This document shows, in pieces, positions 18,686 through 64,000 of a stretch of 64,000 bases of DNA. The number at the start of each line of letters is the position of its first letter. Positions within the stretch are counted from its first letter, which is position 1. The notes beneath the pieces are model-generated. The model saw nothing but the letters and a program-made list of their open reading frames with translations, was not told the DNA's origin and did no database searches. The position numbers were made by a program, and so were the translations under genes. Source of the DNA: a virus; the IMG/VR virus record IMGVR_UViG_3300027969_000060, positions 44,992-108,991 of that record. One strand, 5' to 3'.

Positions 18686-19879
18686 TTAAGCGTTTTCAAT
18701 CTGTACACGGTTACCAGATGCGGCTGCAAATGACCACTGAGCTGTTGTGCCATTGGCCACCAACCAGGTTGATTCATTATTTGTCCACTGTGTTAACAAT
18801 GCTTTGTGCGCTGTTAGTTTAGTTACAAAATATGTGTTGCCATTGGCGTCAGTTGCTTTGATATAAGCTTCAAACGTTGCTGGAGTATCGTCGGCTACTA
18901 ATTTACAAACTGCTGTACCGTCAGTTGTTTTAACTTTGTAACGACGACCTGAAGTTTGTTTAATAATATCACCAACACGAACTGTAGCTTCAGCATCAAT
19001 TTTAGCACGGATGATAATTGCATTTTCTTGATTAGTTGCTGAACCAACGTTGCCGCTGTCAGTTGTTAGAACTGCTGTAGCAACTGCGCCAGTGCCGCCA
19101 CTGAATGTTACTTGAGCGTCTACTGGACTAGTATAACCAGAACCTTTTTCTGTTACTGTAACACTTAGTAGACCCATTGTAATATCAGCTTTAGCACCTG
19201 TACCAGTTGCTGGGCTAATTGATGTTAGTGTACCTGCGGCACCTGTGCTTGGAAATGCTGTGTATGAACCAGCCACTGTTACTGTACCAAAAGAGTAAAC
19301 ACCCCATGTTAAGTTAAACGTGGCGCCGCTGCCGTCTGCGTCAATACCTGTGCCTTGAGCGGTTGTACCGCTGACCGGATTCGCTGGAACAGCGGCGTCT
19401 CTACGACCGTTTTGAGTAACTGTAAATGTTAAAATAGCGCCAGAACCGTCAACTGAGTCAACAGTAATGATTAACGACAATGGCCAACCTGCACCTTGCA
19501 TTGTAATAGTGTTGCCAGCTTCATAATCAACACCGCCGGCAACTTTAGCTACGGTTACTGTGACAACTGACGCAACTGGAGCACGAGCTTTAGTTGTTTG
19601 TGTACCTGTGTATACTTCTAAGATATTGCCTACGTCATATCCTGTGCCGTTCGCTGTTGTGGCAAACGATAATGCTTTATATCGTGTAGTACCTGTAACT
19701 TGAACACCGCCTGGAATATCCGGTGCGGCAAGTGTAACTGTTGGCGCCGTAGTCCAACCTGATCCTGCGTTAGATACTGTGTAACTTGCTACACCTTCGC
19801 CGCCAATCTTATTGTCTGATGTGCCTGTGGTACCGATGTTGCGGTTACCAAAATATTTTTTATTCAAACTACGAGCCAT
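18686..19879 (-). CDS. Thr/Gly-rich virion structural protein (possible head decoration/appendage)
   Basis: 397 aa with strong AAGGAG RBS and its own late promoter; GSGY/W beta-strand repeats. Confidence 0.6.
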   Translation of the reverse strand: MARSLNKKYFGNRNIGTTGTSDNKIGGEGVASYTVSNAGSGWTTAPTVTLAAPDIPGGVQVTGTTRYKALSFATTANGTGYDVGNILEVYTGTQTTKARAPVASVVTVTVAKVAGGVDYEAGNTITMQGAGWPLSLIITVDSVDGSGAILTFTVTQNGRRDAAVPANPVSGTTAQGTGIDADGSGATFNLTWGVYSFGTVTVAGSYTAFPSTGAAGTLTSISPATGTGAKADITMGLLSVTVTEKGSGYTSPVDAQVTFSGGTGAVATAVLTTDSGNVGSATNQENAIIIRAKIDAEATVRVGDIIKQTSGRRYKVKTTDGTAVCKLVADDTPATFEAYIKATDANGNTYFVTKLTAHKALLTQWTNNESTWLVANGTTAQWSFAAASGNRVQIENA

Positions 19880-19901
19880 TTTATTTTCTCCTTAAGAAAT
19901 C

Positions 19902-19958
19902 ACGGCGTTCTAGGCCGTACGCGGTTGCTGTTCCGCATAAAACTTACCCTGTGTAAGT
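19902..19958 (-). promoter_or_regulatory. Three-hairpin 5' leader
   Basis: Stems ACUUAC/GUAAGU, GCGG/CCGC and ACGGC/GCCGU lie in tandem before the RBS. Confidence 0.45.
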
Positions 19959-29826: not shown

Positions 29827-30816
29827 TTACTTTGCCTTCTGTCTTTCTTTTTCCATATCCGCTAGCGTTCTTCCTGCTTGCGGTACGTTAGCAAATCGTG
29901 GATCAATTTTAAATTCAGCACGACCAGTAGGAGAAGTTACAATCTCAGGTCTTGCTGATATTGGTAGTTGTTTGTTAGCAGGCCCTTGACCAGCTGTTGG
30001 ATTTGTTCCTTGGCTAGTTGAATCTTTAGCAGTTTGTCCTTGTGTGTCCGCGGCGGAGTCAGCATCTGCTTTTGCTGAATTATCTGGAGTTGCTGGGCTG
30101 TTATCTTTGATGCCAAATATTTTCTTAAACTTATCTACAACTGCAATACCTGCATCACCTAATGTTTGGTCAATCATACAAGCGCCAATGATTTCTGCAA
30201 CAGTATTTTTACCAGATTCTGTATTTAAATAGGCCATTAATCCAACGGTAGCGGCGCTGTCTAAGTTGCTTAATAGTTTACCTAGGTTAGCAACTGGTGC
30301 ATATGGGACTAGTCGCATACCTACAGTTAATTGTGTCCAACCTGTGGCTAACTTTAGTGTACCAAATAAAACTGTTGAGGCTGCAATCTGCCCAACGAGT
30401 GTTGCCATACGCTGTTGACGGTACTGCTGATATTTCTCTGGGGTCCACTCGCCTTTTTCAACCATTGCAACAGCATCTTCCATGTCGTCCCAATAGTCAT
30501 AGGCCATCTTACCTAGTCCTAAACCTTTTAACACTAATAGCAATCGACCAGTGGCCTTATTAAAGGTAGCAAATCCGTCCTTAGTTACTTTTCCACCTAC
30601 ATCTGCAATCTTTCCTTTAGGAATTTTACCACCTTTACTTGCTGTAGCTACGGCATCATCTGCACGACCACTAGCACGTTGAGCTAATTTTAAAATACCT
30701 TTACCAACAGGTTCTAGTACTTTACCACCCGTTCTTCCAATTATATTCATAGCAGCCGGGATAATTCCCCCAAACTCTTTTAATTCACGTTCTGTTAGTA
30801 GGTCGTTAATTCTCAT
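29827..30816 (-). CDS. Hypothetical late protein, possibly an internal head/ejected protein
   Basis: 329 aa. N-terminus MRINDLLTE resembles a propeptide with L-x-E sites; hydrophobic helices; late promoter and GAGG RBS. Confidence 0.6.
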   Translation of the reverse strand: MRINDLLTERELKEFGGIIPAAMNIIGRTGGKVLEPVGKGILKLAQRASGRADDAVATASKGGKIPKGKIADVGGKVTKDGFATFNKATGRLLLVLKGLGLGKMAYDYWDDMEDAVAMVEKGEWTPEKYQQYRQQRMATLVGQIAASTVLFGTLKLATGWTQLTVGMRLVPYAPVANLGKLLSNLDSAATVGLMAYLNTESGKNTVAEIIGACMIDQTLGDAGIAVVDKFKKIFGIKDNSPATPDNSAKADADSAADTQGQTAKDSTSQGTNPTAGQGPANKQLPISARPEIVTSPTGRAEFKIDPRFANVPQAGRTLADMEKERQKAK

Positions 30817-30835
30817 TTGTATTTCCTCAGTAAGA

Positions 30836-30843
30836 TATTTATC
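30836..30843 (-). promoter_or_regulatory. Late promoter (GATAAATA)
   Basis: NATAAATA match upstream of the 329-aa gene. Confidence 0.65.
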
Positions 30844-30851
30844 TACTACTT

Positions 30852-31316
30852 TAAGAAGAACTTGCGTTCTTCTGTTCTTCGCTAACGCTCGAACTTACTG
30901 TCTTTCTTTTAATTATATTATTAAACGCGAAGCGTTAAGATATTATCTAGATTGTTCAGTCACACTTAGCCCTTGCGGGCTAAAATTGAACATTATCTGA
31001 GTTGAGCAGTTCACTTAGTGTTTGCACTACAAGCATATTGCTAGCTTAGGCGGTCATCCGGTACCTAATCGTGCTGTCTTATATGACGGCGGGCCTCTAC
31101 ACATACACTAACACATGCAGAGCCGTGGGCTGTTAACCCTCTTTTAGCCTTGGAAATACACACTTACAAATCAAACCGGTTATAATTTAGGCATATCCGA
31201 TCAACGTCCTGTAAAGGATAGTGATTTGCTACTCTACGCCAATTAGAGTTCCTTGCCGCCACACATCAGAGCGGATTTAGGGCACTATACTATCGCCGGT
31301 GCGGGCTTATTTGGCG
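30852..31316 (-). ncRNA. Candidate large structured non-coding RNA directly downstream of the GIY-YIG gene
   Basis: About 470 nt with no ORF. More than 10 stems, GCAA tetraloops, nested long-range helices, and G-U pairs that only work on the minus strand. Confidence 0.6.
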
Positions 31317-31760
31317 TTATTTTGCCTGGTTTTCTTGGAGTCGTTTAATATGCGAACCGTGTACACGTACTTGAATATGACCGTTATAATATTCATTTGA
31401 TTCTAATACTCTACGTGAAAATTGTTCGCGAGCCTCTATGTAACTACATTCTGCCTTGGATTTGCAGTAAAACAGTATTTCTCTTGTGAAGTTTTCTTTG
31501 CCTAGTGCGTCTATGTCTGTTTGAAGATTAGGACTGCTACCATAGTATTCCTGCCAGTCGCTGTCAATTTTACTTCTAATCTTCTTTTTTTTCTTAGTGC
31601 CGTTTTTAAGTTTTACAGTTTTATATGAGGTTTTAGAGAATTTAGCAAGTTTTTTGCCTATGTACATGCGCCCGTTAGTTATATTGGTGATGATATACAC
31701 GAATCCTATACAGTCTTCGGGTAAAATTTCTACGGTTTGGGATTGATATAACCACGTCAT
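31317..31760 (-). CDS. Stand-alone GIY-YIG nuclease-domain protein (Seg-like)
   Basis: GFVY-x-ITN-x3-GRMYIGKK, YYGSS, F-x-REIL, E, YYN motifs; 147 aa with no additional DNA-binding domain. Confidence 0.85.
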   Translation of the reverse strand: MTWLYQSQTVEILPEDCIGFVYIITNITNGRMYIGKKLAKFSKTSYKTVKLKNGTKKKKKIRSKIDSDWQEYYGSSPNLQTDIDALGKENFTREILFYCKSKAECSYIEAREQFSRRVLESNEYYNGHIQVRVHGSHIKRLQENQAK

Positions 31761-31765
31761 GCAAG

Positions 31766-32029
31766 TTAGTTATCACTATCAGTTCCCTCCCGAGCTTCCT
31801 TTTGAGCCTTACGTTTTGCCTTTTGTTTTTCCCAGTCTACGTCTTTCCACTTGCGCCACTCTTGCACATGTATACGTCGAGCAGAGCATATCCTACGAAT
31901 TTCACTCATCCAGAACCGAACGTCCATCCCTGCACGTTTGGTACCTTCTGCTAGCCAACGTTGATTTGCCTTAAAGTATTCCTTAAAAGCATCCATTAGT
32001 TGTGAGTGTAATTCCTCGTCCTGGTGCAT
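31766..32029 (-). CDS. Small basic helical protein, histone H1-like Hc1 family (putative DNA-binding)
   Basis: EGTKRAG..VR..MSEI..IC..RR..VQE resembles the Hc1 pattern KGNKAAG.RAR..L.E...L.K..R..IQE; K/R-rich tail. Confidence 0.5.
   Translation of the reverse strand: MHQDEELHSQLMDAFKEYFKANQRWLAEGTKRAGMDVRFWMSEIRRICSARRIHVQEWRKWKDVDWEKQKAKRKAQKEAREGTDSDN
31767..31774 (-). promoter_or_regulatory. Late-promoter variant (GATAACTA) 6 nt upstream of the GIY-YIG ATG
   Basis: One mismatch to GATAAATA; spacing matches the other leaderless cases. Confidence 0.4.
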
Positions 32030-32529
32030 TATCCTACCTTATAGTACGCAACGCCATCTGTTGCATGTATTTTAATTGATTCTCTATGTCTAGGGAGCTC
32101 ACTCATTCCTATGTTCAGTGGTAACATTAGATCAGTTTTATCTAATGAAAAATAAACTTTCTTACAGCCAAACGCCTGTGTTGATTCATGTACTACACGA
32201 TGATGCGGATGACCGTATTCACCTTCTTCATTGTGTGTTAATATTAAATCGTAGCCTATTGTTGCTCTACGCAGAGCCCTGATAGCATCAAACTTATCCC
32301 ATGTGAGCAAACTATCCGTACCTAAATCCCTGCCGTGATCTTTGAATCCTAAAAACTCAGTATTAACACCACGCTGCCGCCAGTACCTAGCAATTTCACG
32401 ACCACGCTTGTGCCAGCGCCAACAGGTTAGATACACAATGTTCCATTCGTATTCTGGATGTGCATCCATAAACGCACTGGCAAATATAACACAATCATCC
32501 GGATGAGCTACTAAGGCAATTGCTTTCAC
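32029..32529 (-). CDS. PIG-L/LmbE family N-acetylglucosaminyl deacetylase
   Basis: AHPDD metal-binding motif and THN..GEYGHPHH motif. Confidence 0.85.
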   Translation of the reverse strand: MKAIALVAHPDDCVIFASAFMDAHPEYEWNIVYLTCWRWHKRGREIARYWRQRGVNTEFLGFKDHGRDLGTDSLLTWDKFDAIRALRRATIGYDLILTHNEEGEYGHPHHRVVHESTQAFGCKKVYFSLDKTDLMLPLNIGMSELPRHRESIKIHATDGVAYYKVG

Positions 32530-34304
32530 TCTGTGACCTCAAGATCAGTAGCGTATGATGTAAAGCCATTTTCTTTAATAACTCTAAGTACATTGTTAAC
32601 ACGACCAATTAGCTCGTCTTTGTGGCTGATTAAGAAAATATTTTTCTTACGTTCACGTCCCATCTTTTTAAGTACACTGAGCGCACTTTCAACACCGCTG
32701 GCATCTAATCCGTTATCAATAAGCTCGTCAACAAATAACAAGTTAATGCTTTGATATAGGCTTTCCCATACATCGCGGAATGCCCATGATAATCCAAGAA
32801 TAAGTCTATTTCGTTCCCCTCGACTTAGATTATCAAAATCTAAATCTTGTCCTAGTTGGGTAATTTCAACAGTGAGATCGTTTTGGAATACAACAGTATG
32901 CGGTAGTCCCATGCGATCAAGATAATAGGTTAACCTATTATTAAGGTATGCTAGGTTTTGATCTATGATCTTCTTACGAATAAACGAGTCTTTTGAAGTT
33001 AGTAGCTTCAATAGAAACTCTTGGTGGTCTTTTAAGCTAGAAAGTTCATTAACACGATCCCATGTAATTTCTTGCATGGCGGTGTCTGTTAATTCATCGA
33101 TCTGCTCTTGATACGGATCTGTTTCACCTGCCTTGATAGTCAGATTTGTTTCTAATGTTTTAAGATTATTTTGATGTTTAAGTGCTTGTTCAACAGTGTC
33201 ATAATATGTTTCGGGCCGTCCACTAAGCTCACCGATAGCAATAATTTCTGTTGTAATTTTAGCTAGGTCAGCAACAACTTTATTGTGATACTGTTGTGAT
33301 TCTGCAAGATGCTTAGTAGCTTCGGCAGTCATTTCTTCATGTTTATGATCGTGAAGTTCTTGTTCACAAGCGTGACATTTTTTGTCCTGCAATTTAGCAA
33401 GCTCGCTAGAGTACTTTTTTACGCTTCGCTCCGCTTGTGCTGTCGCGCTATCTAACGTAGCTCTCTCCTTATTCAGGCTCTTTAGCTTGGCTGTCTTTTC
33501 ATCAAACTCTTTAAGTTTAGCATGTTTAGCAAGCTCTGTATCAATGTCTACATTTTCTAATTCAATAATAGCACGACCAATTTTTTCAAGATCTTGATCG
33601 TGTTGATGGTTCCATGCATTTTGTCTTGTTAACAATGCATCAATACTTTGTTGTATTTTTTCATTAGCTTTTTTTGACGCTTCGATATTTGCACTTTCTT
33701 GTATAATACTATCTTTAGTTTGTCGGATTAGTTCTTTAAGTGTTTCTGCTTTCTCACTGAGCAAGGTAATACCTAACAACTGTTCAATGATAGCACGTTG
33801 GTCCGCAGCCTTCATAGACAAAAACGGCTCAGTATAAGTGTTAAGTGCAACCACGTGCTTGAACATGTCGTGACTCATACCTAGCAAGTCATCTAAGTCC
33901 TTTTGTGTCTCACGCATATCGCCCTGAGCATCGTCGGTTTCTTCTGTTTCTTGTTCCTGATCGTTTACATAAAACTTCATAAGAGTAGGCTTGCGCCCAC
34001 GCTCAACACGATAGACAACGCCGTCTTTTTCAAAAGCTAGTGTAACCAACATATTTTTATTATTAATTTTGTTGATTAAATTATCTTTCTTAATATTAGT
34101 AAGTGCATTACCAAACAGGGCAAAACTTAATGCATTTACAATGGTTGTTTTTCCCGTGCCATTTCTACTTCCGCTATCATCTCCGCCTTGGTCTAAGTTT
34201 TCCCCTAGCACAAGTGTTAAGTTCTCTTTTGTAAAATCTACAGCTTGGGTTTGATTACCCACGCTCATAAAATTCTTAACAGTTAAATTTTTAATTTTAA
34301 TCAT
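32526..34304 (-). CDS. gp46: Recombination ATPase subunit (gp46/SbcC/Rad50-like)
   Basis: NGTGKTT Walker A, CHAC zinc hook, LSRGE signature, LLFVDE Walker B, ISH. Confidence 0.95.
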   Translation of the reverse strand: MIKIKNLTVKNFMSVGNQTQAVDFTKENLTLVLGENLDQGGDDSGSRNGTGKTTIVNALSFALFGNALTNIKKDNLINKINNKNMLVTLAFEKDGVVYRVERGRKPTLMKFYVNDQEQETEETDDAQGDMRETQKDLDDLLGMSHDMFKHVVALNTYTEPFLSMKAADQRAIIEQLLGITLLSEKAETLKELIRQTKDSIIQESANIEASKKANEKIQQSIDALLTRQNAWNHQHDQDLEKIGRAIIELENVDIDTELAKHAKLKEFDEKTAKLKSLNKERATLDSATAQAERSVKKYSSELAKLQDKKCHACEQELHDHKHEEMTAEATKHLAESQQYHNKVVADLAKITTEIIAIGELSGRPETYYDTVEQALKHQNNLKTLETNLTIKAGETDPYQEQIDELTDTAMQEITWDRVNELSSLKDHQEFLLKLLTSKDSFIRKKIIDQNLAYLNNRLTYYLDRMGLPHTVVFQNDLTVEITQLGQDLDFDNLSRGERNRLILGLSWAFRDVWESLYQSINLLFVDELIDNGLDASGVESALSVLKKMGRERKKNIFLISHKDELIGRVNNVLRVIKENGFTSYATDLEVTE

Positions 34305-62597: not shown

Positions 62598-62598
62598 C

Positions 62599-64000
62599 AT
62601 GAGCTATAAAGTTCAACATACAGAAACCACAAATCCAAGTAAGCCACCAATTATTGTAGAAGACCAATCTCTTAATACAGATACAAGTGTTACATTTGTG
62701 GGCAAGAATTATCCAGGATATTCAAGGGTCATTGGTGAAAACTTTTTACATTTATTAGAAAATTTTGCAAAAAACACTGCACCAGTAAATGCAGTTGAAG
62801 GTCAGTTGTGGTATGATAATAGTCCCGGTGTTAATTTATTAAAAGTATATGATGGAACACAGTGGACCGCAGCCGGCAGTGTTAAAAAAGCAACAACTGC
62901 ACCTAGCGTTGGTATTGTCGGAGACTTATGGGTTAATACAAATACCCAACAACTCCATGTGTATTCTGGATCAAATTGGTTATTAATTGGCCCTCAATAT
63001 AGTTCGGGAGCTAAAACAGGTCCTGACGTAGAAACTATTGTTGATATTAATAATATTGATCATAGTGTAATGACATTGTATGCTAATAATTATAGATTAG
63101 CAATATTGAGTAAAGAATCTTTCACTCCTAAATTATTAATTACGGGATTTGAAACGATTGGTCAAGGTTTAAACATTAGTACAGTTGATACTACGAGTAC
63201 AAGTTCACCTACAAAATTTTGGGGAACAGCCAGCAAAGCCGACGCATTAGTAATCAATAACGCAACGGTTGCTGCCGTAAACTTTTTAAGAACAGATGTA
63301 TCAAGCATTACAAATGCTACAATTGGTGTAAGAGCTAACGGCGGCATTACAGTTGGAAGTGACCTAAGTTTTAACGTTGCAACTGATGCGGCATCAAACT
63401 CAGCAGTTTTATACTCTAAGGCTAGTGGTGGTAATCTTGATATACGTTTAACTCAAACAAACGGTACAATTACAAACGTAATCCGTGTTGATTCCACTAA
63501 CAGAGTTGGTATTAACAATACTGCTCCACAAGAAGCATTAGATGTTACTGGCAATATTATAGCAAGCGGAGATGCTACAATCGACGGCGAAGTAACAGCA
63601 ACTACTTTAAATATTAATTCAACATCTACATTTACAGATGATATTTCAACATACGGTCAAACATTAATTAATTATTTAGATATTGATGGGAACCCTACAA
63701 CAGCCGCAGTAATATTACCCGGTAATAATACAGCTGATGCATTGTATGATATTGGTTCAGTCACCCGTAGGTTTAGAAACATTTATGCACAAGAGTTTGT
63801 AGGAAGTTTTAACGGTGCATTTACAGGATCATTATCAGGAAGCATTACCGGATCAGCCGCAAAACTTTCAAGCCCAACGACATTCCAATTGTTAGGAGAC
63901 GTATCAAGTGATGCAGTATCCTTTGATGGACAAACTCCACAAACAGGATATCCACCAGGCGTAATTAAATTTACAACAACAATCAATCAAAACTTAATTA
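62599..64000 (+). CDS. Tail fibre/baseplate-attached protein (partial, runs off the right edge)
   Basis: Not in the ORF track. ATG 62599 (MSYKVQHTE...) with GGAG RBS; GKNY.GY...GENFLHLLENFA...P...EGQLWYD motif; open to the window end. Confidence 0.8.
   Translation, partial: MSYKVQHTETTNPSKPPIIVEDQSLNTDTSVTFVGKNYPGYSRVIGENFLHLLENFAKNTAPVNAVEGQLWYDNSPGVNLLKVYDGTQWTAAGSVKKATTAPSVGIVGDLWVNTNTQQLHVYSGSNWLLIGPQYSSGAKTGPDVETIVDINNIDHSVMTLYANNYRLAILSKESFTPKLLITGFETIGQGLNISTVDTTSTSSPTKFWGTASKADALVINNATVAAVNFLRTDVSSITNATIGVRANGGITVGSDLSFNVATDAASNSAVLYSKASGGNLDIRLTQTNGTITNVIRVDSTNRVGINNTAPQEALDVTGNIIASGDATIDGEVTATTLNINSTSTFTDDISTYGQTLINYLDIDGNPTTAAVILPGNNTADALYDIGSVTRRFRNIYAQEFVGSFNGAFTGSLSGSITGSAAKLSSPTTFQLLGDVSSDAVSFDGQTPQTGYPPGVIKFTTTINQNLI

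What the first reader, a model, noticed from the sequence alone, without database searches (positions are those of the whole stretch)
30852..31774. Minimal GIY-YIG nuclease followed directly by a ~470-nt structured RNA: candidate nuclease-ncRNA system
Seen: this is by far the largest gap in a densely coding window. It starts at the GIY-YIG stop codon, is richer in GC than other gaps, and folds almost end to end on the minus strand. Stems include GCAC/GUGC, CCGCU/GGCGG, ACUCUA/UAGAGU and GCAAAUCA/UGAUUUGU (31166-31229, enclosing UCCU-UUAC-AGGA and GAUCGG/CCGGUU). Others are GGGUU/AGCCC, an 11-bp CUCUGCAUGUG/UAUGUGUAGAG helix with four G-U pairs (31095-31122), UUAGG..CGG-AUGA-CCG..CCUAA and UAGUG/CACUA. 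AGAU..UGUUCA/UGAACA.AUCU encloses UUAGCCC-GCAA-GGGCUAA, and the last stem is AGAAGAAC-GCAA-GUUCUUCU. The G-U pairs and GNRA loops favour the nuclease strand. The nuclease is only a catalytic domain with a basic KKKKIR insert and no NUMOD/HTH module. A late-like promoter 6 nt before its ATG could give one transcript of ORF plus RNA. Known: compact nucleases paired with an adjacent structured RNA (IscB-omegaRNA, TnpB-reRNA, HEARO) exist, and GIY-YIG genes often sit in group I introns, but no interrupted host gene or P7/R-S intron core is evident here. Inference: an RNA-associated or RNA-guided GIY-YIG ribonucleoprotein, or an unclassified large phage ncRNA.
Basis: partly seen in the sequence, partly recalled or inferred. 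Interest (0 to 1): 0.88.

Follow-up and report, generated by a model that had tools for sequence, protein, structure and literature searches.

The report
Full-length twin-box Polynucleobacter-1 phage RNA
The 500-base gene-free gap behind a small nuclease gene of this uncultured freshwater T4-like phage encodes a real, knotted non-coding RNA of about 460 bases; its first third is the catalogued orphan motif Polynucleobacter-1, the rest shows one 7-letter word twice, and the nuclease looks like a fixed neighbour rather than the RNA's partner.

Summary
ORF 31317-31760(-) is a catalytic-domain-only GIY-YIG nuclease. The 500-nt gap behind it is the largest in the window.

The gap encodes a conserved RNA of about 460 nt on the nuclease strand. 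On 99 relatives, 87% of 110 proposed pairs form and 73 pairs carry compensatory changes. Two pseudoknots covary.

Positions 31164-31307 match Rfam RF01718, Polynucleobacter-1 (68.9 bits, cut-off 37), an orphan motif of 2010 already noted to lie behind one gene family. The other ~310 nt match no Rfam family. They hold two identical 7-nt words, AGAUAAU at 30998-30992 and 30948-30942. At least 15 different words occur across relatives, and the two copies are identical in all 150 loci where both were parsed.

The RNA-guided-nuclease reading is not supported:
- The GIY family occurs in 508 cultured phage records; the two neighbourhoods inspected lack the RNA.
- A PD-(D/E)XK nuclease replaces it before the same RNA in 8 of 113 loci.
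- Five loci have no such gene upstream, and extra ORFs can intervene.
- GIY residues track the words less than control proteins do.

Function remains unknown. This scan has reported the same family on many other genomes.

The parts
31317..31760 (-). GIY-YIG nuclease gene, 147 aa, catalytic domain only with a basic beta-hairpin insert (phrog_447 / 'T4-like GC 213' family)
   Evidence: Pfam PF19835 E 1.4e-32; phrog_447 E 9.5e-37; AF2 model with I-TevI Z 8.0; 508 cultured phage records hold relatives
30853..31312 (-). Full-length structured RNA, about 460 nt, from just after the GIY stop codon to the 3' hairpin
   Evidence: DNA conservation spans exactly this block in relatives; 110 pairs, 87.2% paired against 73.6% shuffled and about 40% slid, 73 pairs compensatory
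31164..31307 (-). 5' domain = Rfam RF01718 Polynucleobacter-1. Helices: P1 31302-31298/31286-31282; P2 31274-31268/31263-31256; P3 31248-31244/31236-31232; P4 31228-31223/31172-31167, enclosing 31217-16/31209-08 and 31202-31197/31179-31174
   Evidence: cmscan 68.9 bits (cut-off 37), E 1.6e-12, model positions 1-141; helices 1-12 covary
31088..31149 (-). Middle domain: junction helix GGC 31149-31147 / GCC 31090-31088; hairpin GGG 31139-31137 / CCC 31129-31127; long hairpin 31124-31113 / 31104-31092
   Evidence: Helix 15: 12 of 12 pairs with changes on both sides, 92% paired. Helix 14: 4 of 4 compensatory
31015..31111 (-). Pseudoknot 1: loop UUAGUGU 31111-31105 pairs with ACACUAA 31021-31015
   Evidence: 86.8% paired against 20-47% slid; 7 of 8 pairs compensatory, e.g. 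CG:78/UA:21 and GC:81/AU:17
31053..31087 (-). Pseudoknot 2: GUCAU 31087-31083 pairs with AUGAC 31057-31053, inside the near-invariant GGUACCGGAUGACCGCC core
   Evidence: Helix 17: 97.7% paired, UA:51/CG:48 and GC:57/AU:37
31024..31074 (-). Helices GCAC 31074-31071 / GUGC 31027-31024 and UUAGG 31069-31065 / CCUAA 31050-31046. A lineage-specific 15-nt insert hairpin lies at 31045-31031
   Evidence: Helix 18: 4 of 4 compensatory, 95% paired. Helix 19: 97% paired. The insert is seen in only a few relatives
30992..30998 (-). Twin box 1, AGAUAAU, preceded by ACUC
   Evidence: Identical to box 2 in 150 of 150 parsed loci; at least 15 different words; parallel covariation AA:74/GG:63 and others
30966..30983 (-). 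Hairpin UUAGCCC-GCAA-GGGCUAA between the two boxes
   Evidence: Helix 23: 3 pairs compensatory, 83% paired
30942..30948 (-). Twin box 2, AGAUAAU, preceded by AUCU, 50 nt after box 1
30924..30936 (-). Small hairpin AACGC-UUC-GCGUU
   Evidence: Helices 25-26: GC:64/UA:16 and others; the outer pairs are weak
30895..30923 (-). A/U-rich linker, variable in length and sequence
   Evidence: Alignments A1 and A2
30855..30894 (-). Two 3' hairpins: 30894-30891/30877-30874 with inner GC-GUUA-GC, and the terminal GAAGAAC-GCAA-GUUCUUC at 30872-30866/30861-30855
   Evidence: Helices 27-30: all pairs compensatory, 90-97% paired. The terminator scan did not call it, as the U tract is short
30836..30843 (-). 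GATAAATA, T4-type late-promoter-like motif 20 nt before the ATG (30816) of the next, hypervariable gene
   Evidence: NATAAATA lies within 260 nt after the 3' domain in 86 of 170 loci; conserved column block in A1. The promoter role is inferred

Best explanation
The gap is a gene for a stable, independently folding phage non-coding RNA of about 460 nt. It is the full-length form of the Polynucleobacter-1 family, which earlier notes of this scan call the 'twin-box RNA'.

It lies on the minus strand at the 3' end of the gp46-like / PIG-L / 87-aa / GIY-YIG gene string. It ends in a covarying hairpin just before a late-promoter-like motif of the next gene.

Three domains locked by two pseudoknots form a conserved scaffold. 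The scaffold shows the same 7-nt word (AGAUAAU here) twice, each copy after an invariant tetranucleotide (ACUC or AUCU).

Most likely mechanism (inferred, not shown): the two words are single-stranded specificity elements that base-pair with two copies of one complementary sequence in an external nucleic acid.

The GIY-YIG gene is a syntenic neighbour with a job of its own, probably a structure-specific DNA nuclease of the recombination module (also inferred). It is not an obligate partner of the RNA.
For: Known family. RF01718 scores 68.9 bits over the full model. The same family scores 73-121 bits, 20-35 nt after the GIY stop, in 13 of 20 relatives.

Real structure.
- On a structure-blind MAFFT alignment of 99 sequences, 87.2% of cells pair, against 73.6% shuffled and 37-44% slid.
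- 73 of 110 pairs have changes on both sides. The covariation score is 0.391 against 0.154, reached by 0 of 500 shuffles.
- Pseudoknot 1 has 7 compensatory pairs. Pseudoknot 2 is 97.7% paired with UA/CG and GC/AU swaps.
- G-U cells outnumber A-C cells 724 to 216, which fixes the strand.

Twin words.
- The two copies are identical in 150 of 150 parsed loci, across at least 15 words. Rare words include ACGAAAU, AUAGCAG, AUGAAGA and AGUUGAA. ACAUGAA occurs in more distant relatives that the RNA profiles did not detect.
- Nearly any letter is tolerated provided both copies change. This fits base-pair reading better than a fixed protein site.

Independence from GIY.
- Among 113 non-redundant loci found through the RNA alone: GIY adjacent in 88, GIY with an extra ORF between in 5, PD-(D/E)XK (PF24608 / phrog_244) in 8, neither nuclease found upstream in 5, contig end in 7.
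- In L129 the complete RNA (RF01718 at 114.9 bits) starts 10 nt after a PD-(D/E)XK gene.
- In L100, L217 and L218 the RNA lies upstream of GIY on the other strand.
- GIY relatives occur in 508 cultured phage records. The Melnitz locus (scanned with Rfam and with the RNA profiles) and the P-HM1 locus (profiles only) lack the RNA.
- GIY-only contigs of 119 and 67 kb lack the RNA core motif.
- GIY alignment columns share less information with the box letters (top 0.11-0.57) than gp46 (0.30-0.70) or baseplate (0.28-0.67) columns do.

Operon position. The upstream ORFs overlap or abut one another.
Against: No transcript ends or abundance are known. Metatranscriptome contigs from four studies cover the ORF and the RNA of relatives. 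They cannot show a separate stable RNA, and they may include DNA.

The 3' hairpin lacks a long U tract and was not called as a terminator.

The external target of the words was not found, so pairing with a nucleic acid is an inference from the pattern of variation. A co-evolving dimeric protein is not excluded.

Of 106 assessable RNA-seeded loci, 101 (95%) still have a small nuclease gene of one fold or the other upstream. That could mean functional coupling rather than synteny alone.
Confidence: 0.55

Rival explanations
1. RNA-guided or RNA-associated nuclease. The small nuclease binds the downstream RNA, and the twin 7-nt words direct cleavage, for example of both strands of an inverted-repeat site.
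For: A small nuclease gene lies upstream on the same strand in 101 of 106 assessable RNA-seeded loci. The words are freely variable, as guides are. The nuclease has no DNA-binding domain of its own, and it has a basic hairpin insert.
Against: Two unrelated folds occupy the slot: GIY-YIG and PD-(D/E)XK. The GIY family occurs in 508 cultured phage records, and both neighbourhoods inspected lack the RNA. GIY-only contigs lack the RNA motif. Extra ORFs are inserted between gene and RNA in 6 loci, and three loci have the opposite orientation. GIY residues do not track the words. No complementary site was found nearby.
Confidence: 0.08
2. Replication-origin primer RNA. The transcript re-pairs with the template strand of its own gene, and a word in the RNA can pair with the DNA complement of the other copy. 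This forms a persistent R-loop next to the A/T-rich linker, which primes DNA synthesis. The idea comes from earlier notes of this scan.
For: Identity of the two words, rather than complementarity, is what pairing with the DNA complement of the sister copy would demand. A variable A/U-rich stretch follows the boxes. The locus sits beside recombination and replication genes (gp46-like).
Against: The cumulative GC-skew minimum lies near 36-37 kb, where the skew changes sign, not at 31 kb. An ordinary co-transcriptional R-loop needs no second copy. A sigma-70-type scan gave promoter matches only at chance level; T4-type middle promoters were not scanned for. The elaborate conserved tertiary scaffold is not explained.
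Confidence: 0.12
3. Protein sponge or scaffold. A dimeric RNA-binding protein, from the phage or the host, reads the two boxes. The RNA sequesters it or assembles it.
For: Two identical sites lie about 50 nt apart, each after a conserved lead-in (GUGA..AYYY). The box variant GGAUGAU resembles GGA-type protein sites; this resemblance is from memory only.
Against: Words as different as ACGAAAU, AUAGCAG and AGUUGAA would require a reader that re-specifies at nearly every position. None of the three neighbouring proteins tested tracks the words closely.
Confidence: 0.15
4. Cis-acting element: a 3' UTR stabiliser or processing signal of the nuclease operon, or a leader or riboswitch of the downstream gene.
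For: It sits at the operon's end. Weinberg et al. scored the motif as possibly cis-regulatory.
Against: A late-promoter-like motif lies between the RNA and the next gene. The upstream gene varies (GIY, PD-(D/E)XK, RNase H, others) while the RNA stays. About 460 nt, two pseudoknots and twin words exceed what a stabiliser would need.
Confidence: 0.1

Closest known systems
Polynucleobacter-1 RNA motif (Rfam RF01718; Weinberg et al. 2010, Genome Biol 11:R31, PMC2864571)
   Same: Window 31164-31307 matches the whole 141-position model above the curated cut-off. As that paper's supplement states for most members, it lies downstream of one gene family (GOS11034, 'possible homology to PSSM2_218'). Function is unknown in both cases.
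   Different: The catalogued motif is only the first third. Here the conserved, covarying RNA runs about 310 nt further, with two pseudoknots and the twin words. The paper found it in no purified phage; this copy lies in a T4-like phage contig. The upstream family is identified here as a GIY-YIG nuclease.
IscB/TnpB omega-RNA and HEARO-type nuclease-RNA systems
   Same: A compact nuclease gene sits next to a large structured RNA that carries a variable short sequence.
   Different: The effector fold differs (GIY-YIG or PD-(D/E)XK, not RuvC/HNH). No transposon ends were apparent in the flanks (not searched for). The variable word is internal and duplicated, not a terminal guide. Co-occurrence is not obligate. 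No Rfam hit to HEARO or other families at E<=10.
Free-standing and intron-borne GIY-YIG homing endonucleases of T-even phages (I-TevI, Seg proteins)
   Same: Same catalytic fold (I-TevI Z 8.0) and Pfam SegE_GIY-YIG. The gene sits in an intergenic slot where another nuclease type can replace it.
   Different: There is no DNA-binding domain. No group I intron hit and no split host gene. The family is near-universal in cyanomyoviruses and highly conserved (73-87% identity where gp46 is 52-86%), unlike sporadic homing genes.
Large ornate bacterial and phage RNAs (GOLLD, ROOL, OLE; Kretsch et al. 2025, PMC12286853)
   Same: Large, elaborately folded RNAs of unknown biochemical function. They are phage-associated and were found by comparative genomics.
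   Different: No sequence or model match. This RNA is smaller. Whether it oligomerises is untested.

Membership tests
Rfam RF01718 Polynucleobacter-1 | Covariance-model score at or above the gathering cut-off (37 bits) over the full model | tested here: met
   68.9 bits, E 1.6e-12, model positions 1-141 of 141, window 31164-31307(-)
Rfam RF01718 Polynucleobacter-1 | Helices of the model kept by compensatory change in relatives | tested here: met
   Helices 1-12, e.g. AU:66/GC:28, CG:59/AU:22/UA:15, CG:56/GC:36
Rfam RF01718 Polynucleobacter-1 | Location downstream of the GOS11034 / PSSM2_218-like gene family (Weinberg 2010 supplement) | tested here: inconclusive
   It lies behind the phrog_447 / 'T4-like GC 213' GIY-YIG family, which is widespread in cyanomyoviruses. 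Identity of that family with GOS11034 or PSSM2_218 was not checked directly
GIY-YIG nuclease superfamily | Profile match and fold | tested here: met
   PF19835 E 1.4e-32; I-TevI Z 8.0, PD-T4-3 Z 6.8, EndoII Z 5.1, UvrC-N Z 4.9
GIY-YIG nuclease superfamily | Conserved catalytic Tyr / Tyr-x-Gly / Arg / Glu / Asn | tested here: inconclusive
   Y22, Y33, G35, R93, E109 and N126 are invariant in 47 relatives. Their assignment to catalytic roles is by analogy only
RNA-guided nuclease systems (IscB/TnpB-omegaRNA, HEARO) | Obligate co-occurrence of one effector family with the RNA | tested here: not met
   PD-(D/E)XK replaces GIY in 8 loci, 5 loci have neither nuclease upstream, and the GIY family is widespread, with every inspected locus of cultured phages lacking the RNA
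RNA-guided nuclease systems (IscB/TnpB-omegaRNA, HEARO) | Protein co-evolves with the RNA's variable part, or a matching target exists | tested here: not met
   GIY columns share less information with the box letters than controls do. No complementary site lies within +-3 kb
Group I intron carrying a GIY-YIG ORF | Intron core (P3-P9) and an interrupted host gene | tested here: not met
   No Intron_gpI match at E<=10. The flanking ORFs are complete and unrelated
R-loop replication origin (T4 oriF/oriG, ColE1 RNA II type) | Promoter, unwinding element, persistent RNA-DNA hybrid, origin activity | not testable with these tools
   Only indirect evidence: the GC-skew extremum is at about 36-37 kb, not here, and sigma-70-type promoter matches are at chance level

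The most novel reading that the evidence does not exclude
The RNA is a programmable twin-guide. Its two identical 7-nt words base-pair with two copies of a complementary site, for example the two strands of an inverted repeat or the sister copy in its own template DNA. They thereby direct a nucleic-acid transaction, either cleavage by the adjacent small nuclease or R-loop priming of replication. That would be a class of guide RNA not described before.
Probability: 0.07. Interest if true: 0.9.

Novelty: new variant of a known kind. Interest (0 to 1): 0.62.

Why it matters
Polynucleobacter-1 has stood in Rfam since 2010 as a 141-nt orphan motif from short environmental reads. Here it turns out to be the head of a phage RNA of about 460 nt, with two pseudoknots. 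The family occurs on hundreds of freshwater T4-like phage contigs. More distant relatives, apparently marine, also carry a twin word.

Its most unusual feature is two distant 7-nt words that drift freely yet always stay identical. This is identity covariation rather than complementarity. It points to an unknown reader and gives a concrete handle for experiments.

The work also gives a clear negative result: the adjacent nuclease is not shown to be guided by the RNA, and several tests argue against it. Any claim of a new RNA-guided system should therefore wait for biochemical evidence.

Tried and rejected
- blastn of 30700-31900 against 50,697 cultured phage records: no match.
- Rfam at E<=10 on 30600-32000: only RF01718.
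- ARAGORN on the window: no tRNA or tmRNA.
- Sigma-70 promoter and terminator scans: at chance level; the 3' hairpin was not called.
- Late promoter before the GIY ATG: 1 of 69 relatives has NATAAATA.
- First register of pseudoknot 1, shifted by one base: only 25% paired, which served as an unplanned negative control. The corrected register gave 86.8%.
- A long-range AGC/GCU helix proposed by RNAalifold was dropped as unsupported.
- Reverse complement of the word within +-3 kb: no fixed position.
- Any G-U-tolerant partner inside the RNA: counts equal the shuffled-word control.
- Metatranscriptome contigs of four studies: they cover both the ORF and the RNA of relatives, and they show no ends and no levels.
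- Foldseek against PDB: nothing at E<=0.001.
- phmmer against PDB sequences: nothing significant.
- GIY relatives in 'genomes': all lie on MAG or single-cell contigs of scattered taxa, as expected of mis-binned phage DNA, so no host can be inferred.
- My first gap list wrongly showed a 564-nt gap at 62598-63161. It is covered by an ORF that runs off the window's end.
Full report
**What is at the locus**

The window is part of a 109-kb IMG/VR contig of a T4-like phage. On the minus strand the genes follow one another without gaps: a gp46-like SMC/Rad50 ATPase (32526-34304), a PIG-L family deacetylase, an 87-aa basic ORF, and the 147-aa ORF at 31317-31760.

The 147-aa ORF is a GIY-YIG nuclease.
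- Pfam PF19835 matches with E 1.4e-32 over residues 3-129.
- It belongs to phrog_447, which is mis-named 'NAD synthetase'.
- An AF2 model (pLDDT 87.5) is closest to the I-TevI catalytic domain (Z 8.0, rmsd 2.8, 82 residues aligned). PD-T4-3, T4 EndoII and the UvrC N-domain follow.
- It has no second domain. The K-rich stretch sits at the tip of a beta-hairpin insert.

After its stop codon comes a 500-nt ORF-free gap (30817-31316). This is the largest gap in the window; the next is 155 nt. Its GC content is 43%, against 38% elsewhere.

**Part of the gap is a known RNA family**

Rfam RF01718, Polynucleobacter-1, matches 31164-31307 on the minus strand. The score is 68.9 bits against a cut-off of 37, and the match covers the full model. 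Nothing else in Rfam matches, even at E<=10.

The only paper in the library that names the motif is Weinberg et al. 2010. Its supplement says:
- most members lie downstream of genes of family GOS11034, with possible homology to PSSM2_218 of cyanophage P-SSM2;
- the 3' half is not always detected;
- no purified phage carried it.

So the link to an upstream gene family was already noted. The gene was not identified there as a nuclease, and the RNA was known only as a 141-nt piece.

**The RNA is far longer than the catalogued motif**

More than 595 viral contigs encode close relatives of the GIY protein. In these, DNA similarity runs from the ORF through the whole gap to about 30835 and then stops. 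The flanking genes stay syntenic at the protein level. Alignments of 50 and 99 downstream regions show conserved blocks and visible compensatory changes across the whole ~460 nt.

I tested a structure derived from RNAalifold plus two hand-placed pseudoknots on the structure-blind MAFFT alignment A2.
- 87.2% of 10,702 cells form standard pairs, against 73.6% after shuffling and 37-44% when partners are slid.
- 73 of 110 pairs change on both sides.
- The covariation score is 0.391 against 0.154, reached by 0 of 500 shuffles.
- The long hairpin 31124-31092 has 12 of 12 compensatory pairs.
- Its loop (31111-31105) pairs with 31021-31015, with seven compensatory pairs.
- GUCAU 31087-31083 pairs with AUGAC 31057-31053, inside the almost invariant GGUACCGGAUGACCGCC core, with UA/CG and GC/AU swaps.
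- A one-base mis-registration of the first pseudoknot dropped pairing to 25%. This shows that the test can discriminate.
- G-U cells outnumber A-C cells 724 to 216, so the RNA is on the nuclease strand.

The RNA ends in two covarying hairpins (30894-30855). The GATAAATA motif (30843-30836) follows, 20 nt before the next gene's ATG. That motif recurs in half of the relatives. Its role as a late promoter is inferred.

The local UAGUG/CACUA hairpin is replaced by the pseudoknot and a long-range helix. UGUUCA/UGAACA is not general.

**The twin words**

Mutual information over 143 sequences brought out pairs that covary in parallel rather than as complements. Examples are 30998/30948 (AA 74, GG 63) and 30994/30944 (AA 92, GG 46).

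These pairs belong to a 7-nt word that occurs twice, about 50 nt apart, each time after an invariant tetranucleotide. The arrangement is ACUC-AGAUAAU and AUCU-AGAUAAU, flanking the hairpin 30983-30966.

In every one of the 150 loci where both copies were parsed, the two words are identical. At least 15 different words occur, and divergent members carry words as different as ACGAAAU, AUAGCAG, AUGAAGA and AGUUGAA. ACAUGAA occurs behind more distant GIY relatives, apparently marine, which the RNA profiles did not detect.

No complementary partner that follows the word exists inside the RNA or within +-3 kb.

Because almost any letter is tolerated, I judge base-pairing with a nucleic acid more likely than a protein site. 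This is an inference.

**Is the nuclease the partner?**

I collected loci through the RNA's core motif alone, so this set is not biased by the gene. Of 113 non-redundant RNAs:
- 88 have the GIY gene directly upstream;
- 5 have GIY plus an extra 257-356-aa ORF in between;
- 8 have a PD-(D/E)XK nuclease instead (Pfam PF24608; phrog_244, annotated as a resolvase);
- 5 have neither nuclease upstream;
- 7 are cut by a contig end.

Further points on independence:
- In L129 the full RNA (RF01718 at 114.9 bits) starts 10 nt after the PD-(D/E)XK stop codon.
- In L100, L217 and L218 the RNA lies upstream of GIY on the other strand.
- The GIY family is present in 508 cultured phage records, 329 of them Synechococcus phages. 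The best match is the OM43 phage Melnitz at 51% identity.
- Neither the Melnitz locus nor the P-HM1 locus has the RNA.
- Nine of 69 GIY-seeded loci lack the RNA, and the 119-kb and 67-kb contigs among them lack the core motif altogether.
- The GIY protein's alignment columns share less information with the box letters than the gp46-like and baseplate controls do.

Together these results argue that the nuclease slot is a syntenic position in the recombination module, one that two unrelated nucleases can fill. The RNA is a neighbouring gene.

One caveat remains. 95% of assessable RNAs still sit behind a small nuclease of one kind or the other, so functional coupling is not excluded.

**Expression and other readings**

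Contigs from four freshwater metatranscriptome studies cover the ORF and the RNA of relatives, and one contig bridges both. Contigs give neither ends nor levels, so this is only weak support for transcription.

Earlier notes of this scan suggest a replication-primer reading. It would explain identity of the words through pairing with the sister copy's template DNA. Against it, the cumulative GC skew turns at 36-37 kb, where the skew changes sign, and not at the RNA.

A cis-regulatory role for the downstream gene is unlikely, because a promoter-like motif lies in between.

**Relation to earlier notes of this scan**

The same family has been reported many times on other genomes, as 'twin-box' or 'extended Polynucleobacter-1' RNA. 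My results were obtained independently before I read those notes, and they agree with them. They add three things:
- the unbiased tally of upstream genes;
- the full-length RNA behind a PD-(D/E)XK gene;
- the negative test for co-variation between the protein and the words.

**Verdict**

The gap holds a real, large, knotted phage ncRNA. Its head is a known orphan family, and its body and twin words are uncatalogued. Its function is unknown, and the RNA-guided nuclease idea is not supported.

Noticed in passing
window 19877-19958 (-): Rfam RF02980 freshwater-2 RNA, 72.4 bits (cut-off 49.9), full model. It lies in a 96-nt gap and is another orphan environmental RNA motif in the same phage.
   Followed up: no
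window 29827-30816 (-): The gene after the RNA (329 aa, no Pfam or PHROG hit) is hypervariable. Only 4 of 80 syntenic loci give even a 25-29% tblastn match, although its start MKI..E.I and the promoter-like motif before it are conserved.
   Followed up: partly
window 32029-32529 (-): A PIG-L family deacetylase gene (PF02585, E 4e-11) is wedged between the gp46-like gene and the 87-aa ORF. It gave no tblastn match in any of the 80 syntenic loci, so it looks like a lineage-specific insertion.
   Followed up: no
window 31031-31045 (-): A 15-nt extra hairpin (GCUAGCA-AUAU-GCUUGU) is inserted in the RNA. Only a few close relatives share it (L002, L039, L083, L128, L170).
   Followed up: partly
L109 4369-5259, L110 8190-9017, L122 10375-11148, L154 536-1606: ORFs of 257-356 aa with no Pfam family are inserted between the GIY gene and the RNA in several relatives. 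This slot appears to be a hot spot for gene gain.
   Followed up: partly
L100 4311-4462; L217 and L218 around 2119-2253: Divergent copies of the RNA core lie upstream of the GIY gene on the opposite strand. In L100 the two words differ at their ends (AGCGAAU against UGCGAAG).
   Followed up: no
L016-L018, L035, L051, L056, L061, L078: These GIY loci lack the RNA, yet they share another homologous non-RNA segment downstream of the gene. Its content was not examined.
   Followed up: no
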